Positions 10,441-30,422 of a stretch of 32,000 nucleotides of DNA are shown piece by piece (the first letter of the stretch is position 1; every line of letters starts with the position of its first letter). The stretch spans positions 64,000 to 95,999 of the forward strand of contig PBAU01000002.1 in assembly GCA_002716355.1 (NCBI GenBank), written 5' to 3'. Under the pieces are notes generated by a model. It was not told the origin of the DNA, did no database searches, and saw only the letters and a list, made by a program, of their open reading frames with translations. Made by a program: the position numbers and the translations under genes. Origin of the DNA: a bacterium (GTDB taxonomy: Bacteria; UBP7; UBA6624).

Positions 10441-11607
10441 TTAAACTAAAAACCAATCTTTTTGTGGCTCTGTTGTGACAATTGGAAGAGGATTGATTAC
10501 TAGGTTGATCTCACTTCGTATGCCCCATTCTGGATAATAAACACCAGGTTCAATCGTTCCTGCCCATCCTGGAAGCAGCGATCTTGTGTCTTTTGCCTCA
10601 TAGCTGTCTAGTTGAGCAGCATCACCATGGGCGCTTGTAAGTCCCAGATTATGGCCTGTCCTATGAATGAACCCCTCTCCAAATCCATGATTTTCAATTA
10701 CATTTCTAACAGCCTGGTCAACCTCATAACCGGCAATCGATCTTTTCTCCAAAAAAGCTCTCTTTATTACCTGAACCCCCGCATCTCTGGCTTCTAAAAC
10801 AGCATAAAAACCCTTGTCGATAACCTTGTCAACTTTTCCTCGTTTTGCCATCCATGTTATATCGGCATATGCAGGTTTGTCAGATTTTTTTGTTGCCCAT
10901 AAATCTATAAGAAGCACAAAATTTTCTCCCAATCTTGCACTTCCCTCTTTTGGTGTTGCGTAATGGGGATCGCCAGCATTTCCATTAACTGCAACTACAG
11001 GTGGATGGTCAGTTGTCATGCCCATTTCTTCAAAACTTTCTAGTATCCAATTTTGAACCATTGATTCATCCAGTTCAAAAGGTTTTGCCTTAGACACTCG
11101 ATCAAAAACACCTTGGACTATTGATGTTAAATTTATTGCTGATTCACAATGGGATTCAATTGTTTTTTCGGACCATAGTAAAAGATGTTCCTGCGAGATG
11201 TTTTCACTACTTTTTAAACTGCAATCCATTGATCTTAGTAGGTCAATCAACCCCCCATCAAGATAAGAGAGATAGGGAATCTTGCCATCTTCACACCATT
11301 CCACATAAATGGTTTTTCCTGCAATCATTGATGTCAATGTTCTTTTCCAATCTTCAAAATTTTGATATTTTCTAATTTGCACATCAGTGAATGCCAGACT
11401 TTTTGATTCAATTCCATTGACAATCATTTCTGCTTTTCCTTTTTTTGGAATCCAGAGCGCCCATCGCCTGCTTAAAAACACATTATCTGGTAAAAATTTT
11501 CTAGCAATTGGATTATGTGAATGGAAATCTGCAACAAACCATCCATCAACTGCATGGCTGGAAAGGTTGTTTTGAATTTCTTTAATCAATAAATCGAGTT
11601 GTTTCAT
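10441..11607 (-). CDS. M24-family metallopeptidase (Xaa-Pro aminopeptidase/dipeptidase-like)
   Basis: Pita-bread-fold metal-ligand motifs (LIDLWA.., HRTGHNLG, GTIEPGVYYPEWGIRSEINLV). 388 aa. Confidence 0.85.
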   Translation of the reverse strand: MKQLDLLIKEIQNNLSSHAVDGWFVADFHSHNPIARKFLPDNVFLSRRWALWIPKKGKAEMIVNGIESKSLAFTDVQIRKYQNFEDWKRTLTSMIAGKTIYVEWCEDGKIPYLSYLDGGLIDLLRSMDCSLKSSENISQEHLLLWSEKTIESHCESAINLTSIVQGVFDRVSKAKPFELDESMVQNWILESFEEMGMTTDHPPVVAVNGNAGDPHYATPKEGSARLGENFVLLIDLWATKKSDKPAYADITWMAKRGKVDKVIDKGFYAVLEARDAGVQVIKRAFLEKRSIAGYEVDQAVRNVIENHGFGEGFIHRTGHNLGLTSAHGDAAQLDSYEAKDTRSLLPGWAGTIEPGVYYPEWGIRSEINLVINPLPIVTTEPQKDWFLV

Positions 11608-11635
11608 TGTGGAAAATTTTATACTATGCTAAGTT

Positions 11636-12436
11636 ATGTTTTTTCTAATGATGTTGTTAATGAAACCATGCCTCGGGCATGATCAGCATTGTGACAAAAG
11701 ATACGACGAGCTTTCTTACCTTGTTACGCATAATGCGATGTCGACATCAGAAGATAGATGGCTTTTCCCCAACCAGGATCGAGGTCTCATTGCTCAGCTG
11801 AACGATGGCGTTAGAGGCTTGTCGTGGGACATCTACGAGCATAATCAGGAGGTTTATCTTTGCCATGGTTATTGCTGGCTTGGAAAAAGGAAATTAATGC
11901 ATGACCTTGTTGAACTCAAAGGTTGGCTAGATGATAACCCCAGAGAGATAGTCTCGATTTTTTTTGAAAGCTATGTCGGGAAGAAGCCGGTTGTCGAGCT
12001 TTTTGAGCAGTCTGGAATGATTAGCTATGTTCACCATCAAGCCCTTGAGCAAGATTGGCCATCCATAATTGATATGATCGACAGCGGAAAAAGGGTTGTT
12101 GTTTTCACAAGTCGGGAAGGCGGTATTGACGACTGGTACCATGATGCCTGGAGGTATGTTTGGGATACAGATTTTTCATACAAAAGCATCGATGACTTTT
12201 CATGCTCAAGGCTCAGGGGCCCAAAAGACCTTTCAGGTCTTTACAGCATAAATCATTTTTTGACAAACCCACTTGCCTCAAAAACACTTGCCTCAAAAGC
12301 AAACCCGTCTGTTTACAAAAGAGCTGAGAGCTGTTGGGTAAAGACTGGGCAAAGGCCCAATTTTATTTTTGTTGATTTTTATTCGGTCGGAAACACCTTG
12401 GAGGCGGTAAGAAAATTAAACTTGTTACATTTTTAA
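11636..12436 (+). CDS. PLC-like phosphodiesterase (PI-PLC X-domain-like protein), probably exported
   Basis: The N-terminal region YDELSYLVTHNAMS....NQDRGLIAQLNDGVRGLSWDIYE...VYLCHG matches bacterial PI-PLC X-domain-containing proteins. Short hydrophobic N-terminus. Confidence 0.7.
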   Translation: MFFLMMLLMKPCLGHDQHCDKRYDELSYLVTHNAMSTSEDRWLFPNQDRGLIAQLNDGVRGLSWDIYEHNQEVYLCHGYCWLGKRKLMHDLVELKGWLDDNPREIVSIFFESYVGKKPVVELFEQSGMISYVHHQALEQDWPSIIDMIDSGKRVVVFTSREGGIDDWYHDAWRYVWDTDFSYKSIDDFSCSRLRGPKDLSGLYSINHFLTNPLASKTLASKANPSVYKRAESCWVKTGQRPNFIFVDFYSVGNTLEAVRKLNLLHF

Positions 12437-12469
12437 AACAAGTTTGAATGCACATAACAAATATACAAT
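12418..12469 (+). promoter_or_regulatory. Candidate operator plus promoter upstream of the PhoU-wHTH gene: AAACTTGTTACA ... ACAAGTTT-N18-TACAAT
   Basis: Perfect 9-bp inverted repeat AAACTTGTT (12418-12426) / AACAAGTTT (12437-12445) with a 10-nt spacer. ACAAGTTT lies exactly 18 nt upstream of the -10-like TACAAT (12464-12469). The same elements and spacing occur upstream of pstS. Confidence 0.45.
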
Positions 12470-13412
12470 TGAGAAGATGATGACAGAGGATCGTACAAAC
12501 AAGGTTCATTTAAACGTTATCAGGTTAGGCAAGCTGGTTGTTTTTGCGTTAAAAAAAGCTCTTAAGGGTAGCACCTTTAACATAGATGCTTTTCTTGCAA
12601 AATGCAGAGCAAGAGAGACTGAAATCAACCTGTTAGAGATGGAAATTGAACAGGATCTCCAGACTTTAATGAGACCAGAGCTGGAAGATAAAGATTGTCG
12701 TCACTTTACAGCGTTGTTGAAAATCAATAATGACCTTGAGAGGATTGGCGATTATGCCATGGCGATAGCTAAATATCTTGTTGATGTTGACATGTCAGAA
12801 ACGGTGAAAATTGAATCCAAATTTAAAAAATTATCAAAAGCATCTATAGAGATGCTTGAAAGATCCGTTAAGGCAATAGAGCTTGAAGATATCAACCTAG
12901 CCAAGCAGGTTATTCGTGATGACGATTATGTTGATAAATTGAACAAGGCAATAATCAAGATTCTTTTAAGCAGTAAAAATCCAGATATGGCTTCGGTTGT
13001 TTCGTTGGTTAATTTGTGTAGAAGATTGGAGAGGACAGCAGATCATGCAACCAACATAGCAGAAGATTTGGTTTTTTGGATAGAGGGTGATGTTTTGAGG
13101 CATCCCACAAAAAAAAGATCCTTTATGTTTAATGAGATTGAAATATATCCAAACAGCAGAGAGATTAAGATTTCAGAAAAGGTCCATCTTTCTAAAAGTG
13201 AATGGGAGATATTCATACACCTTATAGAAAGATCTCCAGACGGTGTTTCTAGAGAGGATCTTATGAAAAATGCTTTAGGCTACGACTCTTCTGTTGAAAC
13301 TCGAACTATCGATCAACACGTGGTTAGATTGCGAAAAAAACTAGGCCACAAAAAAACACTTTTGAAATCTATAGCTGGATTCGGTTACAAAGTGGTTAAT
13401 TCAAAGAATTAA
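12444..13412 (+). CDS. PhoU-domain protein fused to an OmpR/PhoB-type winged-helix DNA-binding domain (no receiver domain)
   Basis: Residues ~15-220 carry two PhoU repeats (LKINNDLERIGDYAMAIAKY; RRLERTADHATNIAEDLVFWIEG). Residues ~231-318 match the Trans_reg_C pattern (LSKSEWEIFIHLIERSPDGVSREDLMKNALGYDSSVETRTIDQHVVRLRKKLG....GFGYKV). The listed start is TTG at 12444. ATG at 12477/12480 (MMTEDR) is at least as likely. Confidence 0.85.
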   Translation: MNAHNKYTIEKMMTEDRTNKVHLNVIRLGKLVVFALKKALKGSTFNIDAFLAKCRARETEINLLEMEIEQDLQTLMRPELEDKDCRHFTALLKINNDLERIGDYAMAIAKYLVDVDMSETVKIESKFKKLSKASIEMLERSVKAIELEDINLAKQVIRDDDYVDKLNKAIIKILLSSKNPDMASVVSLVNLCRRLERTADHATNIAEDLVFWIEGDVLRHPTKKRSFMFNEIEIYPNSREIKISEKVHLSKSEWEIFIHLIERSPDGVSREDLMKNALGYDSSVETRTIDQHVVRLRKKLGHKKTLLKSIAGFGYKVVNSKN

Positions 13413-13415
13413 AAC

Positions 13416-13456
13416 AAATTTGTTACAAGTTTTTAAAAAATCACAAAGAATACTAT
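13416..13456 (+). promoter_or_regulatory. Candidate Pho-box-like operator plus promoter of pstS: AAATTTGTTACAAGTTT-N18-TACTAT
   Basis: The 12-mer AAATTTGTTACA (13416-13427) matches 12418-12429 at 11 of 12 positions. ACAAGTTT (13425-13432) lies 18 nt upstream of the -10-like TACTAT (13451-13456). There is no good -35 hexamer, as expected for an activator-dependent promoter. A strong SD, AGGAGG, lies at 13482-13487. Confidence 0.45.
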
Positions 13457-13500
13457 TTAAGATTTCAACTTAAATCCAAAAAGGAGGATTTTATATAAAA

Positions 13501-14385
13501 ATGAAATTTAAATTTTCAAGCTTTTTTATATTGTTAGTTTTAGTAGTTACCAGTTGTGCAAGGCCGCAGGATTCTGAAGGAAATGCCGCAGGAAGTAGTT
13601 CCTCGGGAAGCGAGCAAAGCATACAGGTGACAGGCTCTGACACCATGGTTAACTTAGGTCAAGCATGGGCTGAAGAATATACAAAAACGAACCCCAACGC
13701 ATATATTGCTGTTGGTGGCGGAGGCTCTGGTGTTGGGATCGCTGCCTTGATGAATGGAACTGCTGATCTCGCAAATTCATCCAGAGCAATTAAGGACAAA
13801 GAGATCTCAAAGGCAAACGAACTTGGCTTCGGTATCAAGGAGTATATTGTTGGTTGGGATGGGCTTGCTGTTGTCGTTCACCCAGATAATCCAGTTAACC
13901 AATTGTCAATTTTGCAAATCGCAGAAATTTTTACTGCCAAAATTACAAACTGGAAAGAGGTTGGTGGTGATGATTTAGAGATTGTTTTGTTGTCACGAGA
14001 GGTAAATAGTGGAACACATGTTTACTTCAAAGAAAATGTCGTTGGATCTTTAGGTAAGGGTACTGAATTCAGCGAAGAGGCGTTATTGATGCCAAGTAGC
14101 CAAGCACTTGCTGATGAGGTAACAAATAATATTGGCGCAATTGGCTATTATGGCATGGGTTATTTGTCACCATCACAAAAGCCAATTGATGTATCTGTTG
14201 ATGGGGTTGTTTTTGTTCCACCAACTATAGAAAATGTTCTTAATAAAACATATCCAATTGCGAGACCCCTACACATGTTTTCAAGAGATAACATTTCTGC
14301 AGCAGCAAAAGCTTATATTGAGTGGATAATGGGAGAGGGGGGCCAGGCTGTTGTTGCAGCACAGGATTTTGTCCCCTTGAGCTGA
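13501..14385 (+). CDS. pstS: Phosphate ABC transporter substrate-binding lipoprotein
   Basis: Lipobox (LVVTSC). PstS-family motifs GSDTMVNLGQAWAEEY, GGGGSGVGIAALMNGTADLANSSRAIKDKE, YPIARPLHMF. Confidence 0.92.
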   Translation: MKFKFSSFFILLVLVVTSCARPQDSEGNAAGSSSSGSEQSIQVTGSDTMVNLGQAWAEEYTKTNPNAYIAVGGGGSGVGIAALMNGTADLANSSRAIKDKEISKANELGFGIKEYIVGWDGLAVVVHPDNPVNQLSILQIAEIFTAKITNWKEVGGDDLEIVLLSREVNSGTHVYFKENVVGSLGKGTEFSEEALLMPSSQALADEVTNNIGAIGYYGMGYLSPSQKPIDVSVDGVVFVPPTIENVLNKTYPIARPLHMFSRDNISAAAKAYIEWIMGEGGQAVVAAQDFVPLS

Positions 14386-14416
14386 CTTTAGCCTGATTTG
14401 ATTAAGATTTGAACTT

Positions 14417-15328
14417 GTGAAAAATATAAAATTAAAAAAGCATAAAACAGAGACTTTCAAACAGCCTCTGTCTGAAAAAATAACAGAGGCATGCTTGCGT
14501 TTTGCAGCATGGCTATGCATCTTTTTTATTGCCTGCATTCTTTATTTTTTAGTAAAAGAAAGTGGCGGGGTTTTTTTTAGTGACATTTTTACTATTACAG
14601 GTAAATTTTGGAGACCAATCAGTGAACCTCCAGATTTTGGTGTTTGGGTATTGCTTGCAGGCAGTTTGGCAGTAACGTTAACAGCATCTCTAATCGCAGT
14701 GCCCCTAGGGATTTGTGCAGCTATTTTTATCGGCGAACTGCTGCCACAGAAATTTAGAGAATTTTTGAAAGTTATAGTTGAATTTCTAGCAGCAATACCA
14801 AGTGTTGTTATTGGGTTCTTGGGCATGATTATTCTTGCACCATACATCAAGGAAGCTTTTGACCTAAAAACAGGCTTAACGGCTTTTTCGGCAGCATTGA
14901 TGCTTGCATGGATGGCAATGCCGACAATAGTCAGTTTAACTGAGGATGCTCTCAGAAGTGTACCTGATACTTTAAGAGATGGGGCTCTTGCTCTTGGTGC
15001 TACCAAATGGCAAATGATCACAAGGGTGCTTTTGCCAACAGCAAAACCAGGCATACTTGCTGCAGCAATGCTTGGTGTTGGAAGGGTGATAGGTGAAACA
15101 ATGGCGGTTTTAATGATTAGTGGTAATTCTGCCAGGATACCAAGTAGCATCATGGAGCCAGTCAGAACTCTCACTGCAACAATTGCTGCAGAAATGGGAG
15201 AAACAGTCAAGGGCGATGAGCATTATCAAGCCCTTTTTGGCTTGGGTGTTGTTTTATTTATTATCACATTGCTAATTAATACTGCAGCAGATAGGTTTAT
15301 TAATAAAAAATACACAGAAGAATCATGA
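14417..15328 (+). CDS. pstC: Phosphate ABC transporter permease PstC
   Basis: Multi-TM protein with the PstC-type EAA loop (LTEDALRSVPDTLRDGALALGATKWQMITRVLLPTAKPGI). GTG start. Position after pstS. Confidence 0.92.
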   Translation: MKNIKLKKHKTETFKQPLSEKITEACLRFAAWLCIFFIACILYFLVKESGGVFFSDIFTITGKFWRPISEPPDFGVWVLLAGSLAVTLTASLIAVPLGICAAIFIGELLPQKFREFLKVIVEFLAAIPSVVIGFLGMIILAPYIKEAFDLKTGLTAFSAALMLAWMAMPTIVSLTEDALRSVPDTLRDGALALGATKWQMITRVLLPTAKPGILAAAMLGVGRVIGETMAVLMISGNSARIPSSIMEPVRTLTATIAAEMGETVKGDEHYQALFGLGVVLFIITLLINTAADRFINKKYTEES

Positions 15329-16185
15329 ACTTTAAAAAACAAAATCCAATCAACCAGCAAAAAAGGGCCACTTTTGGCTTGGGGCTTATAACAGCCATTG
15401 TGGTTATTCCGGTTTTATTGATACTAGGTGTTGTTTTTGTTAAGGGTATTTCAGTTATAGATTGGAACTTCCTGACCACTGAACCCACCAATGGTTTAAG
15501 AGAGGGCGGGGTTTTCCCGGCCATAGTTGGAACATTGATCCTGGTTGTTGGGGCCGTGGTTTGGAGTGTCCCTTTTGGTGTGGCTACTGCAATTTATCTT
15601 GTTGAATATTCTCCAAGAAGCCGAGCAGCTAACTTGGTTAGGTTAGCAATCTTAAATTTAGCAGGAGTCCCCAGTGTTGTTTACGGGTTGTTTGGCTTGG
15701 GGGTGTTTGTCATAGCTTTAAAATTTGGCGCAAGCATTTTAGCGGGAACTTTAACCCTTGCTCTGATGGGTTTGCCAGTAATAGTCACATCAACTGCAGA
15801 AGCGTTAAAAGCTGTTCCTGATAGATTCAGAGAAGCAAGCTTGGCATTGGGTGCTAGCAAATGGCAAACAACTAGGCATGTTGTTCTTCCAAACTCCATA
15901 CAGGGAATTTTGACCGGAATAATTTTAGAAATTAGTCGTGCTGGCGGAGAGACTGCACCAATTTTGTTCACTGTAGCAGCTTTTTATTTACCAAGATTGC
16001 CACAAAGTATCTTTGATCAGGTCATGGCGCTTCCAATGCATCTTTTTGCAATCTCAACACAGGTGCCTAACATAGGCTTGGATGTGAGATATGCAGTTGC
16101 CTTAACGTTGTTGTTTTTAGTTTTAGGCATCAATGCAGTTGCAATTTCCATAAGAGCAAAAATTAGGAAAAACAGAATATGGTAA
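15325..16185 (+). CDS. pstA: Phosphate ABC transporter permease PstA
   Basis: Multi-TM protein with EAA loop (STAEALKAVPDRFREASLALGASKWQTTRHVVLPNSIQGI). 4-nt start/stop overlap with pstC. Confidence 0.92.
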   Translation: MNFKKQNPINQQKRATFGLGLITAIVVIPVLLILGVVFVKGISVIDWNFLTTEPTNGLREGGVFPAIVGTLILVVGAVVWSVPFGVATAIYLVEYSPRSRAANLVRLAILNLAGVPSVVYGLFGLGVFVIALKFGASILAGTLTLALMGLPVIVTSTAEALKAVPDRFREASLALGASKWQTTRHVVLPNSIQGILTGIILEISRAGGETAPILFTVAAFYLPRLPQSIFDQVMALPMHLFAISTQVPNIGLDVRYAVALTLLFLVLGINAVAISIRAKIRKNRIW

Positions 16186-16928
16186 AAGAAATCATTATTA
16201 AATCTTTGTCGGTTTCATATGGAAACAAACAGGCAATAAGAAATTTGTCTTTATCGGTTGAAAAAAATGAAATATTAGGAATCATTGGTCCTACTACTTC
16301 AGGAAAAACAACCTTACTTACAGTTTTAAACAGAATGATCGACACAATACCGTCAGTTGCGATTTCCGGCAATGTTTCCATGGGTGATATTGATGTTTTG
16401 ACAACACCAAACATCCATAGTCTCAGGAGGTCTGTTGGGATGATTTTTGCCCTTCCGGTCGCTTTGCCCATGACTATTAGGGAAAATGTTGAATATGGCC
16501 CAAAGATGGCTGGAGAGGCAAAAGGAGAGTTGGAGACAAGGGTTAAAGAAAGTCTTGTGCAGGCTGGATTATGGGATGAGGTGCACGACAGGTTGGACAC
16601 CCCGGCATTAAAGCTTTCAGGCGGCCAGCAACAAAGGCTTTGCATCGCAAGGGCTTTAGCATTAAAGCCAAAGGTTTTATTGCTTGATGAGCCTTGTTCG
16701 GGGCTTGATCCAATCTCAACATCCAGAATAGAGGATACACTGAGTCAATTAAAAAATGACATGACTATCATCTTGGTCACAAACAACCCCCATCAAGCTG
16801 CTCGTGTTGCTCATCGAACAGCTTTTATGCTTAAGGGCGAGCTTATCGAGCTTGCTGACACAGACACACTGTTCACAAATCCTGCAGACAATAGAACAAA
16901 AGAATACATTGAGGGTAAATTTGGATAA
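16179..16928 (+). CDS. pstB: Phosphate ABC transporter ATP-binding protein, divergent paralogue (Q-loop and H-loop substituted)
   Basis: PstB-like throughout: Walker A GPTTSGKT, canonical signature LSGGQQQRLCIARAL, Walker B LLLDEP, C-terminal EYIEGKFG. The Q-loop Gln is Ala (VGMIFALP, codon 16449-16451). The switch His is Asn (LVTNNPHQAAR, codon 16782-16784). Confidence 0.9.
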   Translation: MVKEIIIKSLSVSYGNKQAIRNLSLSVEKNEILGIIGPTTSGKTTLLTVLNRMIDTIPSVAISGNVSMGDIDVLTTPNIHSLRRSVGMIFALPVALPMTIRENVEYGPKMAGEAKGELETRVKESLVQAGLWDEVHDRLDTPALKLSGGQQQRLCIARALALKPKVLLLDEPCSGLDPISTSRIEDTLSQLKNDMTIILVTNNPHQAARVAHRTAFMLKGELIELADTDTLFTNPADNRTKEYIEGKFG

Positions 16929-17692
16929 TGGCAAAAACTCTAATTAAATCTGAAAAATTCAATTTGTGGTATGGTGACTTTCAAGCTTTAATTGATATAG
17001 ATCTCGACATACCAGAAAATCAAGTTACAGCTGTTGTGGGTCCTTCAGGATGCGGAAAAAGCACTTTTGTTCGTTGTATCAACAGGCTAAACGATCAAAT
17101 AAACACAGTTAGCACCAAGGGTTCTATTTTTATTGATGGGACAGACATTTACCAATATACGGCTGATGAGGTTGTTGGGCTTAGGCGATCTGTCGGGATG
17201 GTTTTTCAGAGACCCAACCCCTTTCCGCTTTCTGTTTTTGAAAACGTTGCTTTTGGCTTAAAGACAAACCCCATGGTTCCTGATCATCAAACCATAAAAA
17301 AGGAAGTCAATAAAGCGCTGCAAGCGGTAGGTTTGCTTGAGGACCTAGACGGTAACCTTGCGAGACCAGGAACCAGTCTTTCCCTGGAACAGCAGCAAAG
17401 ATTATGTATTGCAAGATGCCTGCCAACAAGGCCCAAAATATTGCTTATGGACGAACCTTGTTCAGCATTGGATCCAAGCGATACCGATAAGGTAGAGGAG
17501 CTCATAAGGGAATTAAGGAAAGACTATACCGTTGTGATAGTGACCCACAACCTACAACAAGCTGGCAGAATTTCTGATCAATCTGTATTATTCCATTTGG
17601 GCAAAATTATTGAAGCAGCACCAACAGCAGATTTCTTCCAGAACCCGAAAGAAAAAAGAACAAGAGACTTTATTACAGGTCGTTATGGTTAG
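16928..17692 (+). CDS. pstB: Phosphate ABC transporter ATP-binding protein, canonical catalytic motifs but degenerate signature motif
   Basis: Walker A GPSGCGKST, Q-loop VGMVFQRPNPFP, Walker B LLMDEP, H-loop VIVTHNLQQAGR, C-terminal DFITGRYG. The ABC signature reads LSLEQQQRL instead of LSGGQQQRL (17378-17392). Confidence 0.93.
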   Translation: MAKTLIKSEKFNLWYGDFQALIDIDLDIPENQVTAVVGPSGCGKSTFVRCINRLNDQINTVSTKGSIFIDGTDIYQYTADEVVGLRRSVGMVFQRPNPFPLSVFENVAFGLKTNPMVPDHQTIKKEVNKALQAVGLLEDLDGNLARPGTSLSLEQQQRLCIARCLPTRPKILLMDEPCSALDPSDTDKVEELIRELRKDYTVVIVTHNLQQAGRISDQSVLFHLGKIIEAAPTADFFQNPKEKRTRDFITGRYG

Positions 17693-17701
17693 GAGTTAAA
17701 T

Positions 17702-18349
17702 ATGACTAAAAGATTAACAAAACTTATTGATAAAATCAAAGTAAAAACCTTGGCAATGGCTCAAGATGTTTGCAAATCAATGGATGATGCAATGGAGGCA
17801 ATTTTAAATTCTAGCGATGATAAATATCAAGCAATGAAACAACGAGAAGATAATATTGATTCGCTAGAAGTTGAGATCGAAGAATCCATACTTGGCACCA
17901 TTGCTGTCCATCAACCTGTTGCAGATGATTTAAGAATTCTTGCAGCAATGTTGAAGATTACAAATGACTTAGAAAGAATTGGTGATTATGCGATCAAAAT
18001 TGCTCAAAGGGGCAAGGATATTGACGCCAACTTGATCAAGAGCATCAAAGCTCCTTTGTCTAAATTGGGAACATCTTCAATCCAGATGATTAAAGATGCA
18101 GTACAGGCTTTAGACGCAGGAGATGCAGATTTAGCCCAGAAGGTTAGAGATGCTGATGACCAGGTGGATGAGCTTAACAAATCCCTCATAAAGGAATTAT
18201 CCAAAATCGATGATGATGACTTTGAGTCCTTGGTCGCACTGGTTTCAATATCCAGAAGATTCGAAAGAGCTGCTGATCATGCAACAAACATAGCAGAAGA
18301 TGTTTTGTTCTGGCTTGAAGGCAGGATATTCAGACACGGTGAAACCTAA
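17702..18349 (+). CDS. phoU: Phosphate signalling complex protein PhoU (stand-alone)
   Basis: 215 aa with two PhoU repeats (LKITNDLERIGDYAIKIAQR; RRFERAADHATNIAEDVLFWLEG). Position immediately after pstB. Confidence 0.92.
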   Translation: MTKRLTKLIDKIKVKTLAMAQDVCKSMDDAMEAILNSSDDKYQAMKQREDNIDSLEVEIEESILGTIAVHQPVADDLRILAAMLKITNDLERIGDYAIKIAQRGKDIDANLIKSIKAPLSKLGTSSIQMIKDAVQALDAGDADLAQKVRDADDQVDELNKSLIKELSKIDDDDFESLVALVSISRRFERAADHATNIAEDVLFWLEGRIFRHGET

Positions 18350-19266: not shown

Positions 19267-20094
19267 GTGATGTTGTTAGGTTTGTTATTTATATCTAATC
19301 TTTTTAATTCAGACTGCACAGATGCAGAAAAATCCTTTAGGGGTTATTTAGCACATGAGTCAAAAAGCGAAATCACGATAGATGGAAAGTTGGATGATCT
19401 CTCATGGAGAAAAGCACTATGGTCGGATTGTTTTGTAGACATAGAGGGATCACTTCAGCCTAATCCAAAATATAAAACGAGATTAAAAATGTTATGGGAT
19501 GAGAATTACTTTTACATCGCTGCACTAATGGAGGATCCTCATATTTGGGCCGTAAGCACAGAACGAGATTCTTATATTTGGCAAAATGAAGGGGATTTTG
19601 AGGTTTTTATAGATCCCGACAGTAATTCTTTGGACTATATTGAAATTGAAATTAACGCCATGGGAACAGAATGGGATCTTCTTATGGATAAACCGTATAG
19701 CGAAGGTGGCGTTAATGATGATAGTTGGGATATTCAAGGCCTTAAATCAGCAGTTACTATTGATGGAACCTTAAACAACCCTGAAGATATAGATAAAAAA
19801 TGGATAGTTGAAATTGCAATTCCCTGGAAAGGTATAAACCAAACCGCAAATGTTTCTATGCCGCCAAAAAATAATGATTCTTGGAGAATTAATTTTTCTA
19901 GAGTATGGTGGGATCACGAAGTGATTGATGGCCGTTATGTCAAGATTGGAGAGGCTTTTGAAGGCCTGGAGTCAAATTGGGTTTGGTCTGCACAGGGTGT
20001 GATCAATATGCATGATCCTAGCCTTTGGGGCTTTGTAACTTTTAAAAAATTTGAAAAATCTCAAAATCGCATACTTGATTTTTTGTCTAGGTGA
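19267..20094 (+). CDS. Carbohydrate-binding family 9 (CBM9)-like protein
   Basis: IDGKLDDLSWRKALWSDCFVDIEG, YFYIAALMEDPHIWA, DFEVFIDPD...YIEIEINAMGTEWDLLMDKPY, WRINFSRVWW match my memory of CBM9-like family proteins. Hydrophobic N-terminus. GTG 19267 or ATG 19270 start. Confidence 0.75.
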   Translation: MMLLGLLFISNLFNSDCTDAEKSFRGYLAHESKSEITIDGKLDDLSWRKALWSDCFVDIEGSLQPNPKYKTRLKMLWDENYFYIAALMEDPHIWAVSTERDSYIWQNEGDFEVFIDPDSNSLDYIEIEINAMGTEWDLLMDKPYSEGGVNDDSWDIQGLKSAVTIDGTLNNPEDIDKKWIVEIAIPWKGINQTANVSMPPKNNDSWRINFSRVWWDHEVIDGRYVKIGEAFEGLESNWVWSAQGVINMHDPSLWGFVTFKKFEKSQNRILDFLSR

Positions 20095-20099
20095 ATTGA

Positions 20100-22037
20100 A
20101 TGAATGCTGGTCCTCTTGATTGGTTGATCATATTTGTCACTTGGGGTATTTTGGTTTTATCGGTTCCAATTGCCAAAAAATACATGAGGAGCGTTGCTGA
20201 CTACCTTTCTGCAGGAAGATCGGCAGGCAGATATATTTTATCTGTTGCTCAAGGTATAGCTGCGCTTGGTGCAATTTCTGTTGTAGCGATGATGGAACAG
20301 AATTATGTTGCCGGTTTTTCAATGTCTTGGTGGGGGCTAACTATGAATCTTGTTGTTCTCGCTGTCACCGCTTCAGGTTGGGTCATTTATCGTTTTAGGG
20401 AAACCAGGTGTTTAACATTAGCAGAATTTTTTGAACGAAGATACAGTAAAAAATTTCGTATTTTTTCAGGGCTTATAGCTTTCATTTCCGGAATTGTTAA
20501 TTTCGGAATCTTCCCCGCAGTTGGAGCAAGGTTCTTTTTGAATTATCTTGGATTGCCAGGGCATCTCAGCCTGCTTGGCTTTGATATCCCCACTTTTGCA
20601 ATCCTGATGCTTTTTCTTCTTGGGACATCTTTGTATTTTGTTTTTTCTGGAGGGCATGTTGCAGTCACAATTGCAGATTTCATCCAAGGGGTCTTCAGCA
20701 ACGTGGTTTTCATTTGGATGATTTTGTTTTTCTTATTTAATGTTTCCTGGGATCAGATTTTTTATTCATTAAATCAGGCACCAGAAAATGCATCATTGAT
20801 CAACCCATTTAAAACAAGCCAGGTCGAGGATTTTAACCTAGGCTTCTTTTTGATTGGTATATTGATTTACATTTATGGAACCATGTCTTGGCAAGGTACG
20901 CAAGCGTATAACGCCTCGGCCAAAAACGCACATGAAGCTAAAATGGGCAGCCTGTTAGGAAATTGGCGAAATATCCCCCAAAATCTTTTCATGCTTTTCA
21001 TACCAATAATTGCATATACCGTTTTGCATCATCCGGACTTTAGCCTTCAGGCCGATTTTGTAAATTCAACCTTATCTAATGAGGAAAACAATGCAGTTGT
21101 GAATCAATTAAGAGTTCCTGCTGTATTGATATCAATGCTACCTCCTGGTCTAATGGGGGCTTTTGCCGCAGTGATGTTGGCTGCTTTTATTAGCACTCAT
21201 GACACTTACCTTCACTCATGGGGTAGCATCTTTGTTCAAGATGTATACATGCCCTTTCAAAAGAAACCTTTAACCCAAGAAAAACATTTAAAGATTTTAA
21301 AGTGGTCCACGATCGGTGTCGCTATTTTCATATTCATCTTTTCACTAATCTTTCAACAGAGTGAATACATCCTTTTGTTTTTTGCAATTACTGGTGCTAT
21401 CTTCTTTGGTGGGTCCGGAGCTGTTCTGATAGGTGGTCTTTATTGGAACAAAGGCACAACCAAGGGAGCATGGTGGGCAATGTCATTAGGTGCGTCGCTA
21501 TCAGTTTTCGGCATCTTCGGTGAAAGGTACATTGAGGCTTGGCCTGACTGGTTGAATGGGCAGGTTATGACGGGTATTGTTATTTTGTGCTGTATTGTCA
21601 CATATGTGCTTGTGTCTTTAAACTCAAAACAAGCCGGTATAGATTTAAATAAACTTCTTTATAGAGGAAAACATGAAACAGAAAAAGAAAAAAAATTAAT
21701 ACAATTGCAAGTTCCGAGAGGGCTAAAAGCAATAGGCATCACTGAAGAGTTTACAAAATCTGATCGACGACTTTACTATATTACTTATACCTGGGTTATT
21801 GGTTGGTTCCTGACATTTCTAATTGGAACAATATATAACTTAAACAAGACTGTAGTCGATGATAGCTGGATTGCCTTTTGGAAGACTTATATGTGGATAA
21901 ATGTTGTTGTAGCTATATTGGTTACGATTTGGTTTACATACAATGGTTTTAATGATCTAAAAGGCATGTTGAAGGAATTGAAAAGAAAAAAGATAGACAT
22001 TAAGGATAACGGTTTTATTTCAGATGACAACATTTAA
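20100..22037 (+). CDS. Sodium:solute symporter (SSS) family transporter with C-terminal extension
   Basis: 645 aa with about 13-15 hydrophobic helices. SSS-like N-terminal region (YLSAGRSAGRY) and an overall SSS-like helix layout. The substrate is not determinable from sequence. Confidence 0.78.
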   Translation: MNAGPLDWLIIFVTWGILVLSVPIAKKYMRSVADYLSAGRSAGRYILSVAQGIAALGAISVVAMMEQNYVAGFSMSWWGLTMNLVVLAVTASGWVIYRFRETRCLTLAEFFERRYSKKFRIFSGLIAFISGIVNFGIFPAVGARFFLNYLGLPGHLSLLGFDIPTFAILMLFLLGTSLYFVFSGGHVAVTIADFIQGVFSNVVFIWMILFFLFNVSWDQIFYSLNQAPENASLINPFKTSQVEDFNLGFFLIGILIYIYGTMSWQGTQAYNASAKNAHEAKMGSLLGNWRNIPQNLFMLFIPIIAYTVLHHPDFSLQADFVNSTLSNEENNAVVNQLRVPAVLISMLPPGLMGAFAAVMLAAFISTHDTYLHSWGSIFVQDVYMPFQKKPLTQEKHLKILKWSTIGVAIFIFIFSLIFQQSEYILLFFAITGAIFFGGSGAVLIGGLYWNKGTTKGAWWAMSLGASLSVFGIFGERYIEAWPDWLNGQVMTGIVILCCIVTYVLVSLNSKQAGIDLNKLLYRGKHETEKEKKLIQLQVPRGLKAIGITEEFTKSDRRLYYITYTWVIGWFLTFLIGTIYNLNKTVVDDSWIAFWKTYMWINVVVAILVTIWFTYNGFNDLKGMLKELKRKKIDIKDNGFISDDNI

Positions 22038-22977
22038 CAGATATTCAAAAAATCCAATCATTACAAGGAAAGATATACCTTTAAGTTGCACAAATGGAAT
22101 TGAATCAAGTTCGGTTTTCAACCCAGGTGCAATTCTTGACAATGGTGTTTTTCATTTGTTGTTAAGGGTGCAAAGCAGGCAAAGAAAAACTTTCTTAACC
22201 CACTGCTCAAGCACAAATGGGCATGACTTTACTGTTGATGCTCAGTCTGTGAAAATCAACGGGATTAATGAATTGGGCTTCGAGATTTTCCACGTTTACG
22301 ACCCTAGGATTGTCAAAATTGAGGATGTTTTTTTGGTTTCAGCCGCAGTTGATGTTGAAGAGGGGTGCAGAACAGCAATTTTTTCAACTAAAGATTTCAA
22401 AGAGATGGATTTGATCCATATGGGAGATATTGATTCCAGAAACGGTGTTCTTTTTCCAGAGAAAATCAATGGCCATTATTGTCTTTTAGACAGGCCGAAT
22501 AATCAGTTTGCAGGAGGTGTAATGTCAGGTTCTCAGATTTGCTTTTCAGCATCTACCGATTTGGTCTCCTGGGGACGTTCGGTTCCAGTAATGAGTGGAA
22601 ATCATCATTATTGGGATGAGCTTATTGGCGCAGGCCCTCCGCCGATACGAACCAAAGAAGGTTGGCTGCTTGTTTATCATGGCGTTGCGACTCACTTTAT
22701 GAGTAGCAACATATATCAAGCTGGTGTTGCTTTGTTGGATATTGATGAGCCACACAAGATTCTTGCAAGATGTCCAGCTAATATCTTTGAACCCAGAGAA
22801 AGTTACGAACTAACAGGACAGGTACCAAATGTTGTATTTCCCACAGGCTTGCTGGTTGATGCGTCTTCCAAAAACCCTGAAAACTGCAATGAGGTTCTAA
22901 TGTATTATGGTGCAGCTGATTCAAGTGTTTGTCTTGCCAAAACAACCATTCAAAAATTATTGGATTGTTTTAAATGA
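22024..22977 (+). CDS. Glycoside hydrolase family 130 enzyme (beta-mannoside phosphorylase/hydrolase)
   Basis: GH130 pattern: NPIITRKDIP, VFNPGAILDNGVFHLLLRVQS, YDPRIVKIED, SRNGVLFPEKINGHYCLLDRP, WDELIGAGPPPIRTKEGWLLVYHGV, YQAGVALLDIDEPHKILAR, YELTGQVPNVVFPTG, YYGAADSSVCLA. No signal peptide. Confidence 0.82.
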   Translation: MTTFNRYSKNPIITRKDIPLSCTNGIESSSVFNPGAILDNGVFHLLLRVQSRQRKTFLTHCSSTNGHDFTVDAQSVKINGINELGFEIFHVYDPRIVKIEDVFLVSAAVDVEEGCRTAIFSTKDFKEMDLIHMGDIDSRNGVLFPEKINGHYCLLDRPNNQFAGGVMSGSQICFSASTDLVSWGRSVPVMSGNHHYWDELIGAGPPPIRTKEGWLLVYHGVATHFMSSNIYQAGVALLDIDEPHKILARCPANIFEPRESYELTGQVPNVVFPTGLLVDASSKNPENCNEVLMYYGAADSSVCLAKTTIQKLLDCFK

Positions 22978-27884: not shown

Positions 27885-27915
27885 AGATTATGGAAGGTCT
27901 AGCTTACACCCAACT

Positions 27916-28779
27916 TTGGCAATCATGATCATTTTCCTTATCTCCCAAATGTTTTTTTACACTCAGCCAGAAGAGGTAAATGTCATGTCTTTCAATATCA
28001 GGTACGGAGCAGCTAATGACGGTATAAACAAATGGGACAATAGGAAAGAGTTTGTATATGAAACGATTAAGCAAGAGACATATGATTTTATTGGTGTTCA
28101 GGAGGCTTTGCACTTTCAGATCCAGGCAATAAATGCCGAGCTGATCGATCACAATGTTTTTTTTAGAGGTAGAGGCTGGTCGCCTTTAACAGGTGAAGCA
28201 TGCGGTATTTTTTACAGTAATTCCTGGGAGATTATCATTAATGAATCAGGTACGTTTTGGCTGTCAGAAAAACCTGATACACCAGCATCTAAAAGTTGGG
28301 ATTCTTCACTGCCCAGAATTGTTACCTGGGCTAAATTCAGAAACAAAATATCGAACAATTTTGTTTATGTTTACAACACGCACTTTGACCATCTGGGACA
28401 ACAAGCAAGGGAGCAGAGTTCAAAGATTATCATTGAACACATCAGTAAAAGAGAGCATGATGCCCCTGTAATTTTGCTTGGTGATTTCAATGCTGCAGAA
28501 AACAATAAGGCAATTGCCATTTTGAAAAAAGGCATGCCTGAAGGTTTGTCTTTTTTTGACCCTTGGAATCAAATGCATCCAGAAGAAACCCAAAGAGGAA
28601 CTTTCAATTATTGGAAGAGTGAAAAGGATGGACCGAAGATTGATTATATTTTTGCTTTAAAGGGTACTCGCGTATTGGACGCACAGATATTGAGAAGGAC
28701 TTTTGAAGGGAGGAATTCTTCTGACCATTACCCGGTAACAGCAAAACTTGTTTTAACGGCATCCTTGGGGGATTACTAA
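27916..28779 (+). CDS. Endonuclease/exonuclease/phosphatase (EEP) family protein
   Basis: EEP motifs VMSFNIRYG, IGVQEAL, VYNTHFDHLG, LLGDFNA, IDYIF, SSDHYPVTA. The listed start is TTG 27916. ATG 27985 (MSFNIRY), preceded by GAGG at 8 nt, is a plausible alternative. Confidence 0.85.
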   Translation: MAIMIIFLISQMFFYTQPEEVNVMSFNIRYGAANDGINKWDNRKEFVYETIKQETYDFIGVQEALHFQIQAINAELIDHNVFFRGRGWSPLTGEACGIFYSNSWEIIINESGTFWLSEKPDTPASKSWDSSLPRIVTWAKFRNKISNNFVYVYNTHFDHLGQQAREQSSKIIIEHISKREHDAPVILLGDFNAAENNKAIAILKKGMPEGLSFFDPWNQMHPEETQRGTFNYWKSEKDGPKIDYIFALKGTRVLDAQILRRTFEGRNSSDHYPVTAKLVLTASLGDY

Positions 28780-30409: not shown

Positions 30410-30422
30410 ACTGTAATCCCCA

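What the first reader, a model, noticed from the sequence alone, without database searches (positions are those of the whole stretch)
12444..13412. PhoU sensor domain fused directly to a PhoB/OmpR-type DNA-binding domain: a possible one-component phosphate regulator
Seen directly:
- The first ~220 residues are a complete two-repeat PhoU. Its motifs are nearly identical to the stand-alone PhoU at 17702..18349 (LKINNDLERIGDYA vs LKITNDLERIGDYA; RRLERTADHATNIAEDLVFWIEG vs RRFERAADHATNIAEDVLFWLEG).
- The stand-alone protein ends ...FWLEGRIFRH-GET-stop. The fusion continues after ...FWIEGDVLRH with a 10-residue basic linker (PTKKRSFMFN).
- About 88 residues then fit the winged-helix Trans_reg_C pattern of OmpR/PhoB effectors (LSKSEWEIFIHLIERSPDGVSREDLM...TRTIDQHVVRLRKKLG...GFGYKV).
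- There is no receiver (REC) domain, and no histidine kinase or response regulator anywhere in the 32 kb.

Established model: PhoU relays the state of PstB to the kinase PhoR, which phosphorylates PhoB.

Inference: this protein would short-circuit that relay, coupling PstSCAB occupancy to DNA binding without phosphotransfer. I do not recall this domain architecture being characterised.
Basis: partly seen in the sequence, partly recalled or inferred. Interest (0 to 1): 0.86.

Follow-up and report, generated by a model that had tools for sequence, protein, structure and literature searches.

The report
PhoU fused to PhoB-type DNA-binding domain
An uncultured marine bacterium has a real, conserved gene at the head of its phosphate-uptake operon that joins the phosphate-signalling protein PhoU directly to a PhoB-type DNA-binding domain with no receiver domain, a very rare and unstudied design that probably lets phosphate-transporter status control transcription without a kinase relay.

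Summary
ORF 12444..13412 (likely start ATG 12477, 311 aa) has two PhoU repeats (Pfam 4e-30) and a Trans_reg_C domain (3e-16), with no receiver. AlphaFold2 (pLDDT 88.7) gives a PhoU six-helix bundle, a ~12-residue hinge and a complete PhoB-like effector domain.

It is not a frameshift artefact. Independent assemblies and 73-74% orthologues keep the frame with A8 or A7 tracts. A GC-rich 35% homologue has the same junction. Both halves are under purifying selection.

The architecture is very rare. Three lineages were found among 1.84 billion cluster representatives. A related PhoU + pseudo-receiver + wHTH form also exists. Every member with genomic context lies in a pst locus, and in one lineage it occupies the phoU slot.

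Arrays of T[TAC]ACA[A/T] units spaced 11 bp apart, resembling Pho boxes, lie upstream of pstS in all four loci.

No kinase or receiver genes occur within about 52 kb. The rest of the genome could not be examined.

The best reading is a one-component Pho regulator. The function and the direction of control are inferred. No paper describing this architecture was found. I rate it a new variant of a known kind, of moderately high interest.

The parts
12477..13412 (+). Coding sequence of the PhoU-wHTH fusion protein (311 aa from ATG 12477; the longest ORF starts at TTG 12444, 322 aa).
   Evidence: ORF list. Pfam PhoU plus Trans_reg_C. Orthologues of 97%, 74%, 73% and 35% identity have the same architecture. 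The start is inferred from N-terminal conservation and from the 310-aa gene call in L006.
12477..13085 (+). PhoU domain: two PhoU repeats forming a six-helix bundle (residues 1-203), with the conserved NDLERIGD and ERxADHATNIAED motifs.
   Evidence: Pfam 4e-30. TIGR02135 at 122 bits. AF2 helices 2-30, 36-64, 71-101, 110-136, 139-165 and 171-203. Foldseek matches to 1xwm, 1t72, 4q25 and 2i0m with target TM 0.84-0.89. Invariant motif columns.
13086..13121 (+). Inter-domain hinge GDVLRHPTKKRS (residues 204-215). It contains the A8 tract at 13109-13116.
   Evidence: Coil in the AF2 model, with pLDDT below 50 only at residues 209-213. The junction DNA stays in frame with A8 or A7 in three lineages.
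13122..13394 (+). Complete OmpR/PhoB-type effector (winged-helix) domain, residues 216-306: a four-stranded sheet, three helices and a beta-hairpin wing. The recognition helix (TRTIDQHVVRLRKKL) is at about 13296-13343.
   Evidence: Pfam Trans_reg_C 3.1e-16. The best NCBIfam equivalogs are PhoB models. Foldseek match to the PhoB effector domain on pho-box DNA, 1gxp, rmsd 2.1 A over 95 residues. pN/pS is 0.15.
13412..13439 (+). Pho-box-like array upstream of pstS: three units spaced 11 bp apart, AAACAA (13412), TTACAA (13423) and TAAAAA (13434).
   Evidence: The three-unit scan scores 16/18 here. The pattern search gives 8 matches against 1.1 expected, and 4 of the 8 are in this array. The block is conserved in L001 and L008, and L001 has an exact 11-bp unit insertion. 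Analogous arrays lie upstream of pstS in L097 (18/18) and L098 (17/18).
13453..13464 (+). Conserved block CTATTTAnGATT between the repeat array and the pstS ribosome-binding site. It may be a -10 element (inference).
   Evidence: Invariant except for one position in the window, L001 and L008. No canonical -35/-10 pair was found in 11400-13600.
12418..12445 (+). Second candidate operator just upstream of the fusion gene: two units 11 bp apart (TTACAT at 12425, AAACAA at 12436), lying within a perfect 9-nt inverted repeat AAACTTGTT/AACAAGTTT. It shares the 8-mers TTGTTACA and ACAAGTTT with the pstS site.
   Evidence: plus direct reading. It overlaps the stop codon of the upstream gene and is only partly conserved in L001 and L008.
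11636..12436 (+). Gene for a PI-PLC X-domain / Rv2075c-like protein, immediately upstream on the same strand. It is conserved next to the fusion gene in all sub-lineages, so it is a likely operon partner and a Pho-regulon-type enzyme.
   Evidence: Precomputed Pfam families PF26178 and PF26146 and conserved adjacency. The local Pfam copy gave no hit.
13501..17692 (+). The pstS (13501-14385), pstC (14417-15328), pstA (15325-16185), pstB1 (16179-16928) and pstB2 (16928-17692) genes of the phosphate ABC transporter.
   Evidence: ORFs. Pfam families of the identical or orthologous genes in L001 and L004.
17702..18349 (+). Stand-alone PhoU (215 aa) at the canonical 3' end of the pst operon.
   Evidence: Pfam PhoU 2.6e-38. 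TIGR02135 at 162.4 bits, above its cutoff. It is 40% identical to the PhoU half of the fusion.

Best explanation
The gene encodes a functional one-component transcription regulator of the phosphate-uptake (pst) locus. A PhoU domain takes the place that the phosphorylatable receiver domain holds in PhoB.

Shown:
- The protein is a complete PhoU six-helix bundle with its conserved motifs, a short hinge, and a complete PhoB-type winged-helix effector domain.
- The fusion is genuine, selected and ancient.
- It is tied to pst loci wherever context is known.
- The pstS upstream regions carry direct repeats spaced 11 bp apart, of the kind that OmpR/PhoB effector domains bind in tandem.

Inferred:
- The winged-helix domains bind these repeats upstream of pstS, and probably the site in front of the regulator's own gene.
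- The PhoU domains supply the dimer or oligomer contacts that a phosphorylated receiver normally provides.
- As in the E. coli model, the PhoU domain reads the state of the transporter ATPase PstB.

The mechanism I think most likely is as follows. When phosphate is plentiful, the PhoU domain is held by PstB at the membrane or kept in a conformation that cannot bind DNA. When transport stalls, it is released and activates the PI-PLC-like gene, itself and pstSCAB-phoU from promoters that lack a -35 element. The stand-alone PhoU encoded at the end of the operon could then give negative feedback, either by competing for PstB or by pairing with the fusion's PhoU domain.

I put about 0.6 on 'a PhoU-gated, phosphorylation-independent DNA-binding regulator of the pst locus'. 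I put about 0.3 on the specific version in which it is an activator released from PstB at low phosphate.
For: Architecture and fold.

Not an artefact:
- The fused ORF recurs in independent assemblies.
- The frame is kept with A8 or A7, and a GC-rich homologue has the same junction.
- pN/pS is 0.25-0.27 for the PhoU half and 0.15 for the wHTH half against the 73-74% orthologues, with synonymous sites saturated.

Genomic association:
- The order fusion-pstS-pstC-pstA-pstB-pstB-phoU is conserved at 74% identity.
- In the third lineage (L097) the fusion sits directly after pstSCAB in the phoU slot, and no other phoU is called on the 11-kb contig.
- The PhoU-REC-wHTH relative P0229 sits in the same slot.
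- In P0229's receiver, Asn replaces the phospho-acceptor Asp and Gln replaces the conserved Lys. Control by phosphorylation has apparently been given up in that lineage too.

Regulatory DNA:
- Three-unit arrays with 11-bp spacing lie upstream of pstS in the window (16/18), L001 (17/18), L097 (18/18, 0.0 expected on the contig) and L098 (17/18; this locus was not used to define the motif).
- L001 differs from the window by an exact 11-bp unit insertion.
- The pattern search gives 8 matches against 1.1 expected, and 5 of them lie in the two short regions flanking the fusion gene.
- There is no canonical -35/-10 promoter in 11400-13600 (0 found against 5.7 expected). That fits activator-dependent promoters.

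No kinase or receiver genes were found in about 52 kb.

Established knowledge, from memory: removing the receiver of PhoB gives a constitutively active effector domain (Ellison and McCleary 2000), so a REC-less domain needs another form of control. From PMC4423584: PhoU interacts with both PstB and PhoR, and PhoU mutants that lose the PhoR contact keep the PstB contact.
Against: - No experiment and no expression data are available.
- The repeat motif was defined after looking at these sequences, the intergenic DNA is AT-rich, and two-unit matches are common (18 against 11.6 expected).
- Pho boxes upstream of pstS would also be present if a canonical PhoB encoded elsewhere were the regulator, so they do not identify the fusion as the binding protein.
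- The rest of the genome could not be searched for phoBR.
- The window's sites also show dyad symmetry, so the binding geometry is unresolved.
- The window lineage keeps a stand-alone PhoU, so the fusion is not simply 'the' PhoU of this organism.
- The PhoU halves of the three fused lineages are no closer to each other than to stand-alone PhoUs. The family may therefore be polyphyletic, and its members need not share one mechanism.
- PhoB models are only marginally the best match for the wHTH. Among PDB sequences, CovR, ArlR and WalR score slightly higher than E. coli PhoB.
Confidence: 0.6

Rival explanations
1. The protein is a phosphate-replete repressor rather than an activator. The PhoU domain, loaded with its signal (PstB contact, metal or phosphate) at high phosphate, promotes binding of the winged helix to repeats that overlap the pstS promoter and shuts the operon off. 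Release at low phosphate then de-represses it.
For: - The repeat array lies immediately upstream of, and close to, the only conserved -10-like block, where a bound protein could occlude RNA polymerase.
- PhoU is genetically a negative regulator in E. coli and Salmonella (abstracts).
- The candidate site in front of the fusion gene is a perfect 9-nt inverted repeat, a geometry typical of repressor operators.
- The acidic transactivation patch of PhoB is only partly kept: W184 becomes L and D192 becomes T in the alignment.
Against: - No recognisable -35 element or full sigma-70 promoter exists for a repressor to cover. Pho-box-type arrays that replace the -35 are the hallmark of activation by PhoB-type proteins (established knowledge).
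- The direct-repeat phasing, not the dyad, is what is conserved across lineages.
Confidence: 0.2
2. The protein is an accessory component of a canonical PhoR-PhoB system encoded elsewhere in the genome. The fusion competes with, or assists, phosphorylated PhoB at Pho boxes. For example, it could act as a PhoU-tethered decoy DNA-binding domain that damps the response when PstSCAB is busy. It would not be a stand-alone pathway.
For: - Only about 52 kb of the genome could be inspected.
- phoBR is often unlinked to pst (established knowledge).
- The window lineage retains a normal stand-alone PhoU that passes the TIGR02135 cutoff. In the classical model such a protein needs a PhoR partner.
- In Planctomycetota, phoU and phoB are adjacent but separate genes, which shows that the two functions normally coexist.
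Against: - In L097 the fusion is the only PhoU-domain gene in the pst operon.
- In the P0229 lineage the receiver between PhoU and the wHTH has lost its phospho-acceptor Asp and conserved Lys. This suggests that PhoU, not a kinase, is the input when the two are joined.
- Strong purifying selection on the DNA-binding half fits a primary regulator at least as well as a decoy.
Confidence: 0.15
3. The fusion is a sequencing, assembly or frameshift artefact, or a decaying pseudogene. On this reading the PhoU and the winged-helix protein are really separate ORFs, joined by an error in the A8 tract.
For: A homopolymer tract (A8, 13109-13116) lies exactly in the linker.
Against: - The same fused ORF occurs in at least seven independent assemblies from different projects and assemblers.
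- Orthologues with an A7 tract keep the frame because the preceding codon differs.
- The GC-rich homologue P0004 and the third lineage P0270 have the same architecture without any A tract.
- Both halves are under purifying selection.
- No start codon or ribosome-binding site is available for a separate wHTH ORF (direct reading).
Confidence: 0.01

Closest known systems
PhoU (phosphate signalling complex protein; PF01895 x2, TIGR02135), e.g. E. coli PhoU and the structures 1xwm, 1t72, 4q25 and 2i0m
   Same: The N-terminal 203 residues have the same two-repeat six-helix bundle, with target TM 0.84-0.89, and the same conserved NDLERIGD and ERxADHATNIAED motifs. The gene shows the same genomic association with pstSCAB.
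   Different: It carries an additional C-terminal DNA-binding domain. It scores below the TIGR02135 equivalog cutoff (122 against 130 bits). In the window it lies at the head rather than the tail of the operon, and it coexists with a canonical PhoU. The known PhoU acts through the kinase PhoR, not on DNA.
PhoB / OmpR-family response regulators (REC + Trans_reg_C), e.g. E. coli PhoB, with its effector domain on pho-box DNA in 1gxp
   Same: The effector domain has the same fold (rmsd 2.1 A over 95 residues). PhoB models are the best NCBIfam matches. Recognition-helix positions are conserved. Candidate binding sites are direct repeats spaced 11 bp apart upstream of pstS.
   Different: There is no receiver domain, and so no phosphorylation switch. 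By definition it is not a response regulator. Position V197 of the recognition helix is Gln (the DQH signature), so the sequence specificity may differ.
Archaeal SpoVT/AbrB-PhoU regulators (e.g. [quoted passage not shown]
   Same: The concept is the same: a PhoU domain and a DNA-binding domain in a single polypeptide. TK2245 was recovered among chromosome-associated proteins (PMC7325993). PhoU-domain proteins are counted among the transcription factors of Pyrococcus furiosus (PMC6316755).
   Different: The DNA-binding fold is different (a swapped-hairpin AbrB domain, N-terminal) and the domain order is reversed. They are archaeal. They have no relation to the PhoB/Pho-box paradigm.
REC-less OmpR-type regulators: ToxR/CadC-like membrane one-component regulators and the SARP/AfsR/EmbR family
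   Same: These also use a Trans_reg_C winged helix without a phosphorylatable receiver, controlled instead by a fused sensor module (the ToxR and CadC papers listed).
   Different: In those proteins the winged helix is N-terminal, followed by a transmembrane or periplasmic sensor (ToxR, CadC) or a BTAD domain (SARP). Here it is C-terminal, the protein is soluble and consists of just two domains, and the sensor is PhoU.
PhoU-(pseudo)REC-wHTH protein P0229 (GCA_965178085.1) and adjacent phoU-phoB gene pairs in Planctomycetota (L037)
   Same: They show the same pairing of PhoU with a PhoB-type output, and P0229 sits in the phoU slot of a pst operon.
   Different: P0229 keeps a receiver-like domain, although it lacks the phospho-acceptor Asp and the conserved Lys. 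In L037 the two proteins are separate. Together they look like earlier steps on the path to the REC-less fusion. This evolutionary path is an inference.

Membership tests
PhoU family (PF01895; TIGR02135 phoU_full) | Two PhoU repeats that fold into a six-helix bundle | tested here: met
   Pfam finds two stretches at E=4e-30. The AF2 model has six helices. Foldseek target TM to solved PhoUs is 0.84-0.89.
PhoU family (PF01895; TIGR02135 phoU_full) | Conserved E/D-x-x-x-D motifs in each repeat (NDLERIGD, ERxADHATNIAED) | tested here: met
   These columns are invariant among the fused proteins and across 64 PhoU-domain sequences.
PhoU family (PF01895; TIGR02135 phoU_full) | Score above the NCBIfam equivalog cutoff (130.25 bits) and a single-module architecture of about 215-240 aa | tested here: not met
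   It scores 122.3 bits and carries an extra 100-residue domain. The window's stand-alone PhoU scores 162.4 bits.
PhoU family (PF01895; TIGR02135 phoU_full) | The gene is linked to pstSCAB | tested here: met
PhoU family (PF01895; TIGR02135 phoU_full) | Physical interaction with PstB and with the PAS domain of PhoR | not testable with these tools
   This needs two-hybrid or pull-down assays, or multimer modelling. No PhoR was found in the DNA available.
OmpR/PhoB-family response regulators | C-terminal Trans_reg_C winged-helix effector domain | tested here: met
   Pfam 3.1e-16. The fold matches 1gxp, 2hwv and 8hml.
OmpR/PhoB-family response regulators | N-terminal receiver domain with a phospho-acceptor Asp | tested here: not met
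   There is no PF00072 hit. The model shows only the PhoU bundle N-terminal to the effector domain.
PhoB equivalog (TIGR02154 / NF053854) | Full-length score above the cutoff (296 / 270 bits) | tested here: not met
   It scores 46.9 and 56.7 bits, and only the effector-domain part is matched.
PhoB equivalog (TIGR02154 / NF053854) | Binds Pho boxes (direct repeats with 11-bp periodicity) upstream of pstS | tested here: inconclusive
   Suitable arrays are present and conserved. Binding by this protein has not been shown, and the motif was defined post hoc.
One-component signal transduction systems (input and output domains in one protein, with no phosphotransfer domains) | A sensory or input domain fused to a DNA-binding output, without HisKA, HATPase or REC | tested here: met
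   Domain content and model.
One-component signal transduction systems (input and output domains in one protein, with no phosphotransfer domains) | The output activity is controlled by the input domain in response to a signal | not testable with these tools
   This requires biochemistry or genetics.
ToxR/CadC-like membrane one-component regulators | N-terminal wHTH followed by a transmembrane helix and a periplasmic sensor | tested here: not met
   The wHTH is C-terminal. The whole chain is accounted for by two soluble domains.
Archaeal AbrB-PhoU regulators | N-terminal SpoVT/AbrB domain followed by PhoU repeats | tested here: not met
   There is no AbrB hit. The DNA-binding domain is Trans_reg_C and is C-terminal.

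The most novel reading that the evidence does not exclude
This lineage has no PhoR/PhoB two-component system at all. The PhoU-wHTH protein would then be the sole, phosphorylation-independent master switch of its Pho regulon. Its PhoU domain would read the conformational state of PstB directly and gate a PhoB-type DNA-binding domain. That would be a natural minimal phosphate-sensing circuit. It would show that PhoU is itself the signal-receiving module, and it would provide a two-protein system (PstB plus the fusion) in which the long-unresolved mechanism of PhoU signalling can be reconstituted.
Probability: 0.3. Interest if true: 0.82.

Novelty: new variant of a known kind. Interest (0 to 1): 0.64.

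Why it matters
How PhoU passes information from the PstSCAB transporter to the Pho regulon is still debated. Recent Salmonella, mycobacterial and S. aureus papers still treat it as an open question.

A natural protein in which PhoU is wired directly to a PhoB-type DNA-binding domain works as a 'Rosetta-stone' fusion. It argues that the PhoU fold can act as the regulatory input of a transcription factor. It also gives a compact system for experiments: one soluble protein, one ATPase and one short promoter.

The series found here sketches how a two-component pathway may collapse into a one-component one. The steps are separate adjacent phoU and phoB genes, then PhoU + pseudo-receiver + wHTH, then PhoU + wHTH.

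The protein could also serve as a kinase-free phosphate-responsive switch for synthetic biology. It should be borne in mind when Pho regulons are annotated in marine metagenomes, where the lack of phoBR might otherwise be read as a lack of regulation.

Tried and rejected
1. Frameshift or assembly artefact at the A8 tract. Rejected.

2. Genome-collection scan with the full-length family alignment. It returned only stand-alone PhoUs and phoU-phoB neighbours. It neither recovered the window's organism nor allowed a search for phoBR.

3. Apparent 'long' matches in Planctomycetota (L035, L037, L039, L065). I first suspected PhoU-REC-wHTH fusions, but L037 turned out to have two adjacent genes.

4. 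Word-index search with the winged-helix half alone. It found only a 74-aa fragment, so it gave no information on the parent response-regulator family and no depth for modelling.

5. Metagenome scan with a wHTH-only alignment. It found only the window's own lineage, plus a canonical kinase/regulator pair (L104) that shares the VSREELLKNALGY...SRTID signature. No new fused lineages appeared.

6. Taxonomy by urocanase. The nearest named sequences are 62-65% identical and spread over Nitrospirota, Myxococcota, Desulfobacterota and Chloroflexota. The only hint is a 'Gemmatimonadota bacterium' label on a cluster mate, at 90% identity or more, of the neighbouring M32 peptidase. The organism remains unplaced.

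7. Walking further along the genome with proteins from the flanks.

8. The sigma-70 promoter scan found nothing in 11400-13600, so no transcription start could be proposed with confidence.

9. I considered using E. coli PhoU residues A147 and R148 (the PhoR contact) as a test for PhoR binding. I rejected this because these positions are not conserved even in the window's own stand-alone PhoU (reading; E. coli numbering from memory).

10. The inverted repeat at 12418-12445 as a terminator of the upstream gene. This is unlikely, because the stem is AT-rich, there is no T tract, and the scan did not call it.
Full report
**1. The observation**

The ORF at 12444..13412 (+) exists and reads as the first-stage reader described. 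Pfam finds two PhoU stretches (PF01895, E=4e-30) and one Trans_reg_C (PF00486, E=3.1e-16, aa 245-316). It finds no Response_reg domain.

NCBIfam aligns residues 18-216 to the full-length PhoU model at 122.3 bits, just under the 130.25 equivalog cutoff. It aligns residues 222-316 to the C-terminal third of response regulators. The two best models are both PhoB. The stand-alone PhoU at 17702..18349 scores 162.4 bits on the same model.

The likely start is ATG 12477, giving 311 aa. The first 11 residues of the longest ORF are not conserved, and another gene caller chose the short form.

**2. Structure**

An AlphaFold2 model was built on 64 sequences. Its mean pLDDT is 88.7.
- Residues 2-203 form six long helices.
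- Residues 204-215 (GDVLRHPTKKRS) are a coil, with low confidence at only five residues.
- Residues 216-306 form the full OmpR/PhoB effector fold: four strands, three helices and a C-terminal hairpin.

Foldseek against the PDB matches the first part to PhoU structures 1xwm, 1t72, 4q25 and 2i0m, with target TM 0.84-0.89. It matches the second part to effector domains, including PhoB on pho-box DNA (1gxp, rmsd 2.1 A over 95 residues). No entry covers both parts. A sequence search of the PDB gives the same split.

**3. Not an artefact**

- The identical or near-identical fused gene occurs in several independent assemblies: Tara ERR594323, TARA_SAMEA2622822, ERZ976865, JGI Ga0208261, Ga0163180, Ga0114932 and CEOQ01.
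- Orthologues of 74% (P0002; two NCBI assemblies) and 73% identity (P0003; three ENA assemblies) have the same architecture.
- At the junction the window has ACA-AAA-AAA-GAT (A8). L001 and L008 have TTG-AAA-AAA-GAT (A7). All three stay in frame.
- P0004 (35% identity, GC-rich) has the same junction with no A tract.
- Between the window and its 73-74% orthologues, synonymous sites are saturated (pS about 0.8). pN is 0.20-0.22 in the PhoU half and 0.125-0.13 in the hinge plus wHTH half. So pN/pS is 0.25-0.27 and 0.15 respectively. The DNA-binding half is therefore at least as constrained as the PhoU half.

**4. How rare it is**

A profile of the family was run against 1.84 billion cluster representatives. 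Only three proteins matched across both halves:
- P0001, which represents this lineage.
- P0004.
- P0121, an N-terminally truncated gene call whose cluster mate P0270 is the full 322 aa.

All other strong hits are stand-alone PhoUs of about 215-240 aa. The word-index search of 5.8 billion proteins found the same four fused sequences. A metagenome scan with a wHTH-only alignment added none.

The PhoU halves of the three lineages are 35-36% identical to each other, and 37-46% identical to stand-alone PhoUs. The wHTH halves of the window and P0004 share the unusual DQH and NALG signatures (34% identity, 79 bits). P0270's wHTH is more distant. It is therefore open whether there was one fusion event or several.

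**5. Genomic context**

In the window and in L001 the gene order is:
- a PI-PLC-X/Rv2075c-like gene,
- the fusion gene,
- pstS, pstC, pstA, pstB, pstB,
- phoU,
- a deacetylase gene.

The PI-PLC-like gene is immediately upstream and on the same strand in every sub-lineage.

In the third lineage (L097) the order is pstS-pstC-pstA-pstB-fusion. The fusion occupies the canonical phoU slot, and no other phoU is called on the contig.

A further relative, P0229 (489 aa), is PhoU + Response_reg + Trans_reg_C and sits in the same slot. Aligned to a canonical PhoB, its receiver has Asn at the phospho-acceptor Asp and Gln at the conserved Lys. It is therefore a pseudo-receiver.

In Planctomycetota (L037), phoU and phoB are adjacent but separate genes.

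These states can be read as a series: adjacent genes, then a fusion with a degenerating receiver, then a REC-less fusion. That ordering is an inference.

**6. Regulatory DNA**

The 88-bp pstS leader in the window begins AAACAAATTTG TTACAAGTTTT TAAAAAATCAC. L008 has AAACAAAATTT TTACAACTTTT. L001 has the same plus one extra exact 11-bp unit (TTACAACTTTT twice). A conserved CTATTTAnGATT block and a strong Shine-Dalgarno sequence follow.

In L097 the pstS upstream region contains CTAACAATTCC CTCACATTCCC CTAACAATTGC, followed by TATGGT.

I scanned for three units of T[TAC]ACA[AT] at 11-bp spacing:

| Locus | Position | Score | Note |
|---|---|---|---|
| Window | 13412 | 16/18 | one other hit in 32 kb; 0.8 expected |
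| L001 | 10975 / 10986 | 17/18 | 0.3 expected |
| L097 | 4130 | 18/18 | 0.0 expected |
| L098 | 5117 | 17/18 | only hit in 21 kb; locus not used to define the motif |

All of these lie upstream of pstS.

The pattern TWACAANTTTNTWACAA with up to 2 mismatches gives 8 matches in the window against 1.1 expected. No shuffle out of 100 reached 8. Five of the 8 lie in the two short regions that flank the fusion gene.

The site in front of the fusion gene (12418-12445) is also a perfect 9-nt inverted repeat. It shares the 8-mers TTGTTACA and ACAAGTTT with the pstS site.

No canonical sigma-70 promoter is found in 11400-13600.

Caveats: the motif is post hoc, the DNA is AT-rich, and two-unit matches are not rare. 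Any PhoB-type regulator would be expected to leave such boxes upstream of pstS. The core resembles the Bacillus PhoP repeat TT(A/T/C)ACA (from memory).

**7. Kinase and receiver genes**

None of the main ORFs of the window has a kinase or receiver domain. The same is true of the genes called within 10 kb on either side. The rest of the genome could not be reached.

The organism is an uncultured marine bacterium with GC of about 0.39. NCBI labels the matching MAG proteins '[bacterium]', and one cluster mate 'Gemmatimonadota bacterium'. Urocanase similarity does not resolve the phylum.

**8. Mechanism**

Shown: the architecture, the selection, the pst linkage and the presence of phased repeats.

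Inferred: the winged helices bind the repeats in tandem, as PhoB does. The PhoU bundle supplies the self-association and the switch that the phosphorylated receiver supplies in PhoB. The switch is set by PstB, which PhoU contacts in E. coli on a surface separate from the one that contacts PhoR (PMC4423584).

The isolated PhoB effector domain is constitutively active (Ellison and McCleary 2000, from memory), so a REC-less domain needs restraint. Sequestration or conformational restraint by the PhoU-PstB contact at high phosphate would provide this. That version is the one I favour (about 0.3), within the broader claim of a PhoU-gated one-component pst regulator (about 0.6).

The rivals are a phosphate-replete repressor (0.2), an accessory to an unlinked PhoBR (0.15) and an artefact (0.01).

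**9. Comparison with what is known**

The protein is a PhoU-domain protein, but not an equivalog of PhoU. It has a PhoB-type effector domain but is not a response regulator, because it has no receiver. By architecture it is a one-component regulator.

The nearest conceptual precedents are the archaeal AbrB-PhoU proteins and the REC-less OmpR-type regulators (ToxR/CadC, SARP). None of these has this domain pair or order.

No paper in the held library mentions PhoU together with Trans_reg_C as an architecture. The 2026 survey of PhoU clades restricted itself to proteins with no additional Pfam domain (PMC13170248).

**10. Verdict**

The feature is real, rare and uncharacterised. It is a new variant of a known kind: a new combination of two well-known modules. 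Its function is strongly suggested by context but remains untested. Interest 0.64.

Noticed in passing
L098 10001-11470 (P0229, GCA_965178085.1): A 489-aa PhoU + Response_reg + Trans_reg_C protein sits in the phoU slot of a pstSCAB operon. In its receiver, Asn replaces the phospho-acceptor Asp and Gln replaces the conserved Lys, so it is a pseudo-receiver sandwiched between PhoU and the DNA-binding domain.
   Followed up: partly
L097 8006-8974 (P0270/P0121): In the third lineage the PhoU-wHTH fusion replaces phoU after pstB. The gene caller used an internal start (277 aa), but the full-length form is 322 aa. About 185 bp of non-coding DNA separates pstB from the gene.
   Followed up: partly
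P0126 (692 aa; found): This protein has an N-terminal signal-like segment followed by six tandem Trans_reg_C-like winged-helix repeats and no receiver. It is an odd multi-wHTH architecture unrelated to PhoU.
   Followed up: no
window 16179-17692: Two tandem pstB paralogues (249 and 254 aa) overlap by one base. They imply a heterodimeric ATPase, which gives two possible docking partners for the two PhoU-domain proteins.
   Followed up: no
L098 5250-5300: A perfect 20-bp direct repeat (GATCTATGTTTAAACATTTT, twice in tandem) lies just upstream of pstS. It is separate from the three-unit Pho-box-like array at 5117.
   Followed up: no
window 72-1037 and L091 7594-10008: The first ORF of the window is the C-terminal universal-stress-protein part of an 804-aa amino-acid permease-Usp fusion that is cut by the window edge.
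   Followed up: no
window 19267-25706: Directly downstream of the pst operon lies a mannoside-utilisation cluster: a CBM9 protein, an SSF transporter, a GH130 phosphorylase and a GH38 alpha-mannosidase. GH130 enzymes consume phosphate, so the neighbourhood may not be accidental.
   Followed up: no
window 27885-27915 (minus strand) and 27916-28779: A two-unit match to the repeat motif (11/12, reverse orientation) lies in the short gap upstream of an Exo_endo_phos family gene, which is a typical Pho-regulon type of enzyme. This is weak evidence.
   Followed up: no
window 29912-30830: MerC and DUF411 genes on the minus strand form a small metal-resistance-like pair, unrelated to the finding.
   Followed up: no
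L104 1403-3059: A canonical histidine kinase/OmpR-type regulator pair from an AT-rich marine organism. Its winged helix shares the VSREELLKNALGY...SRTID signature (44% identity) with the fusion, so it may be related to the parent regulator family.
   Followed up: partly
window 11400-13600: The consensus scan found no sigma-70 type promoter at all in this 2.2-kb stretch (0 found against 5.7 expected from shuffles), although it contains two gene starts.
   Followed up: no
window 11636-12436: The local Pfam copy gave no hit for the PI-PLC-like protein. The precomputed tables list PF26178 (Rv2075c_cat) and PF26146 (PI-PLC_X) for the same or orthologous genes. The longest ORF leaves only 28 bp to the divergently transcribed M24 peptidase gene.
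   Followed up: no
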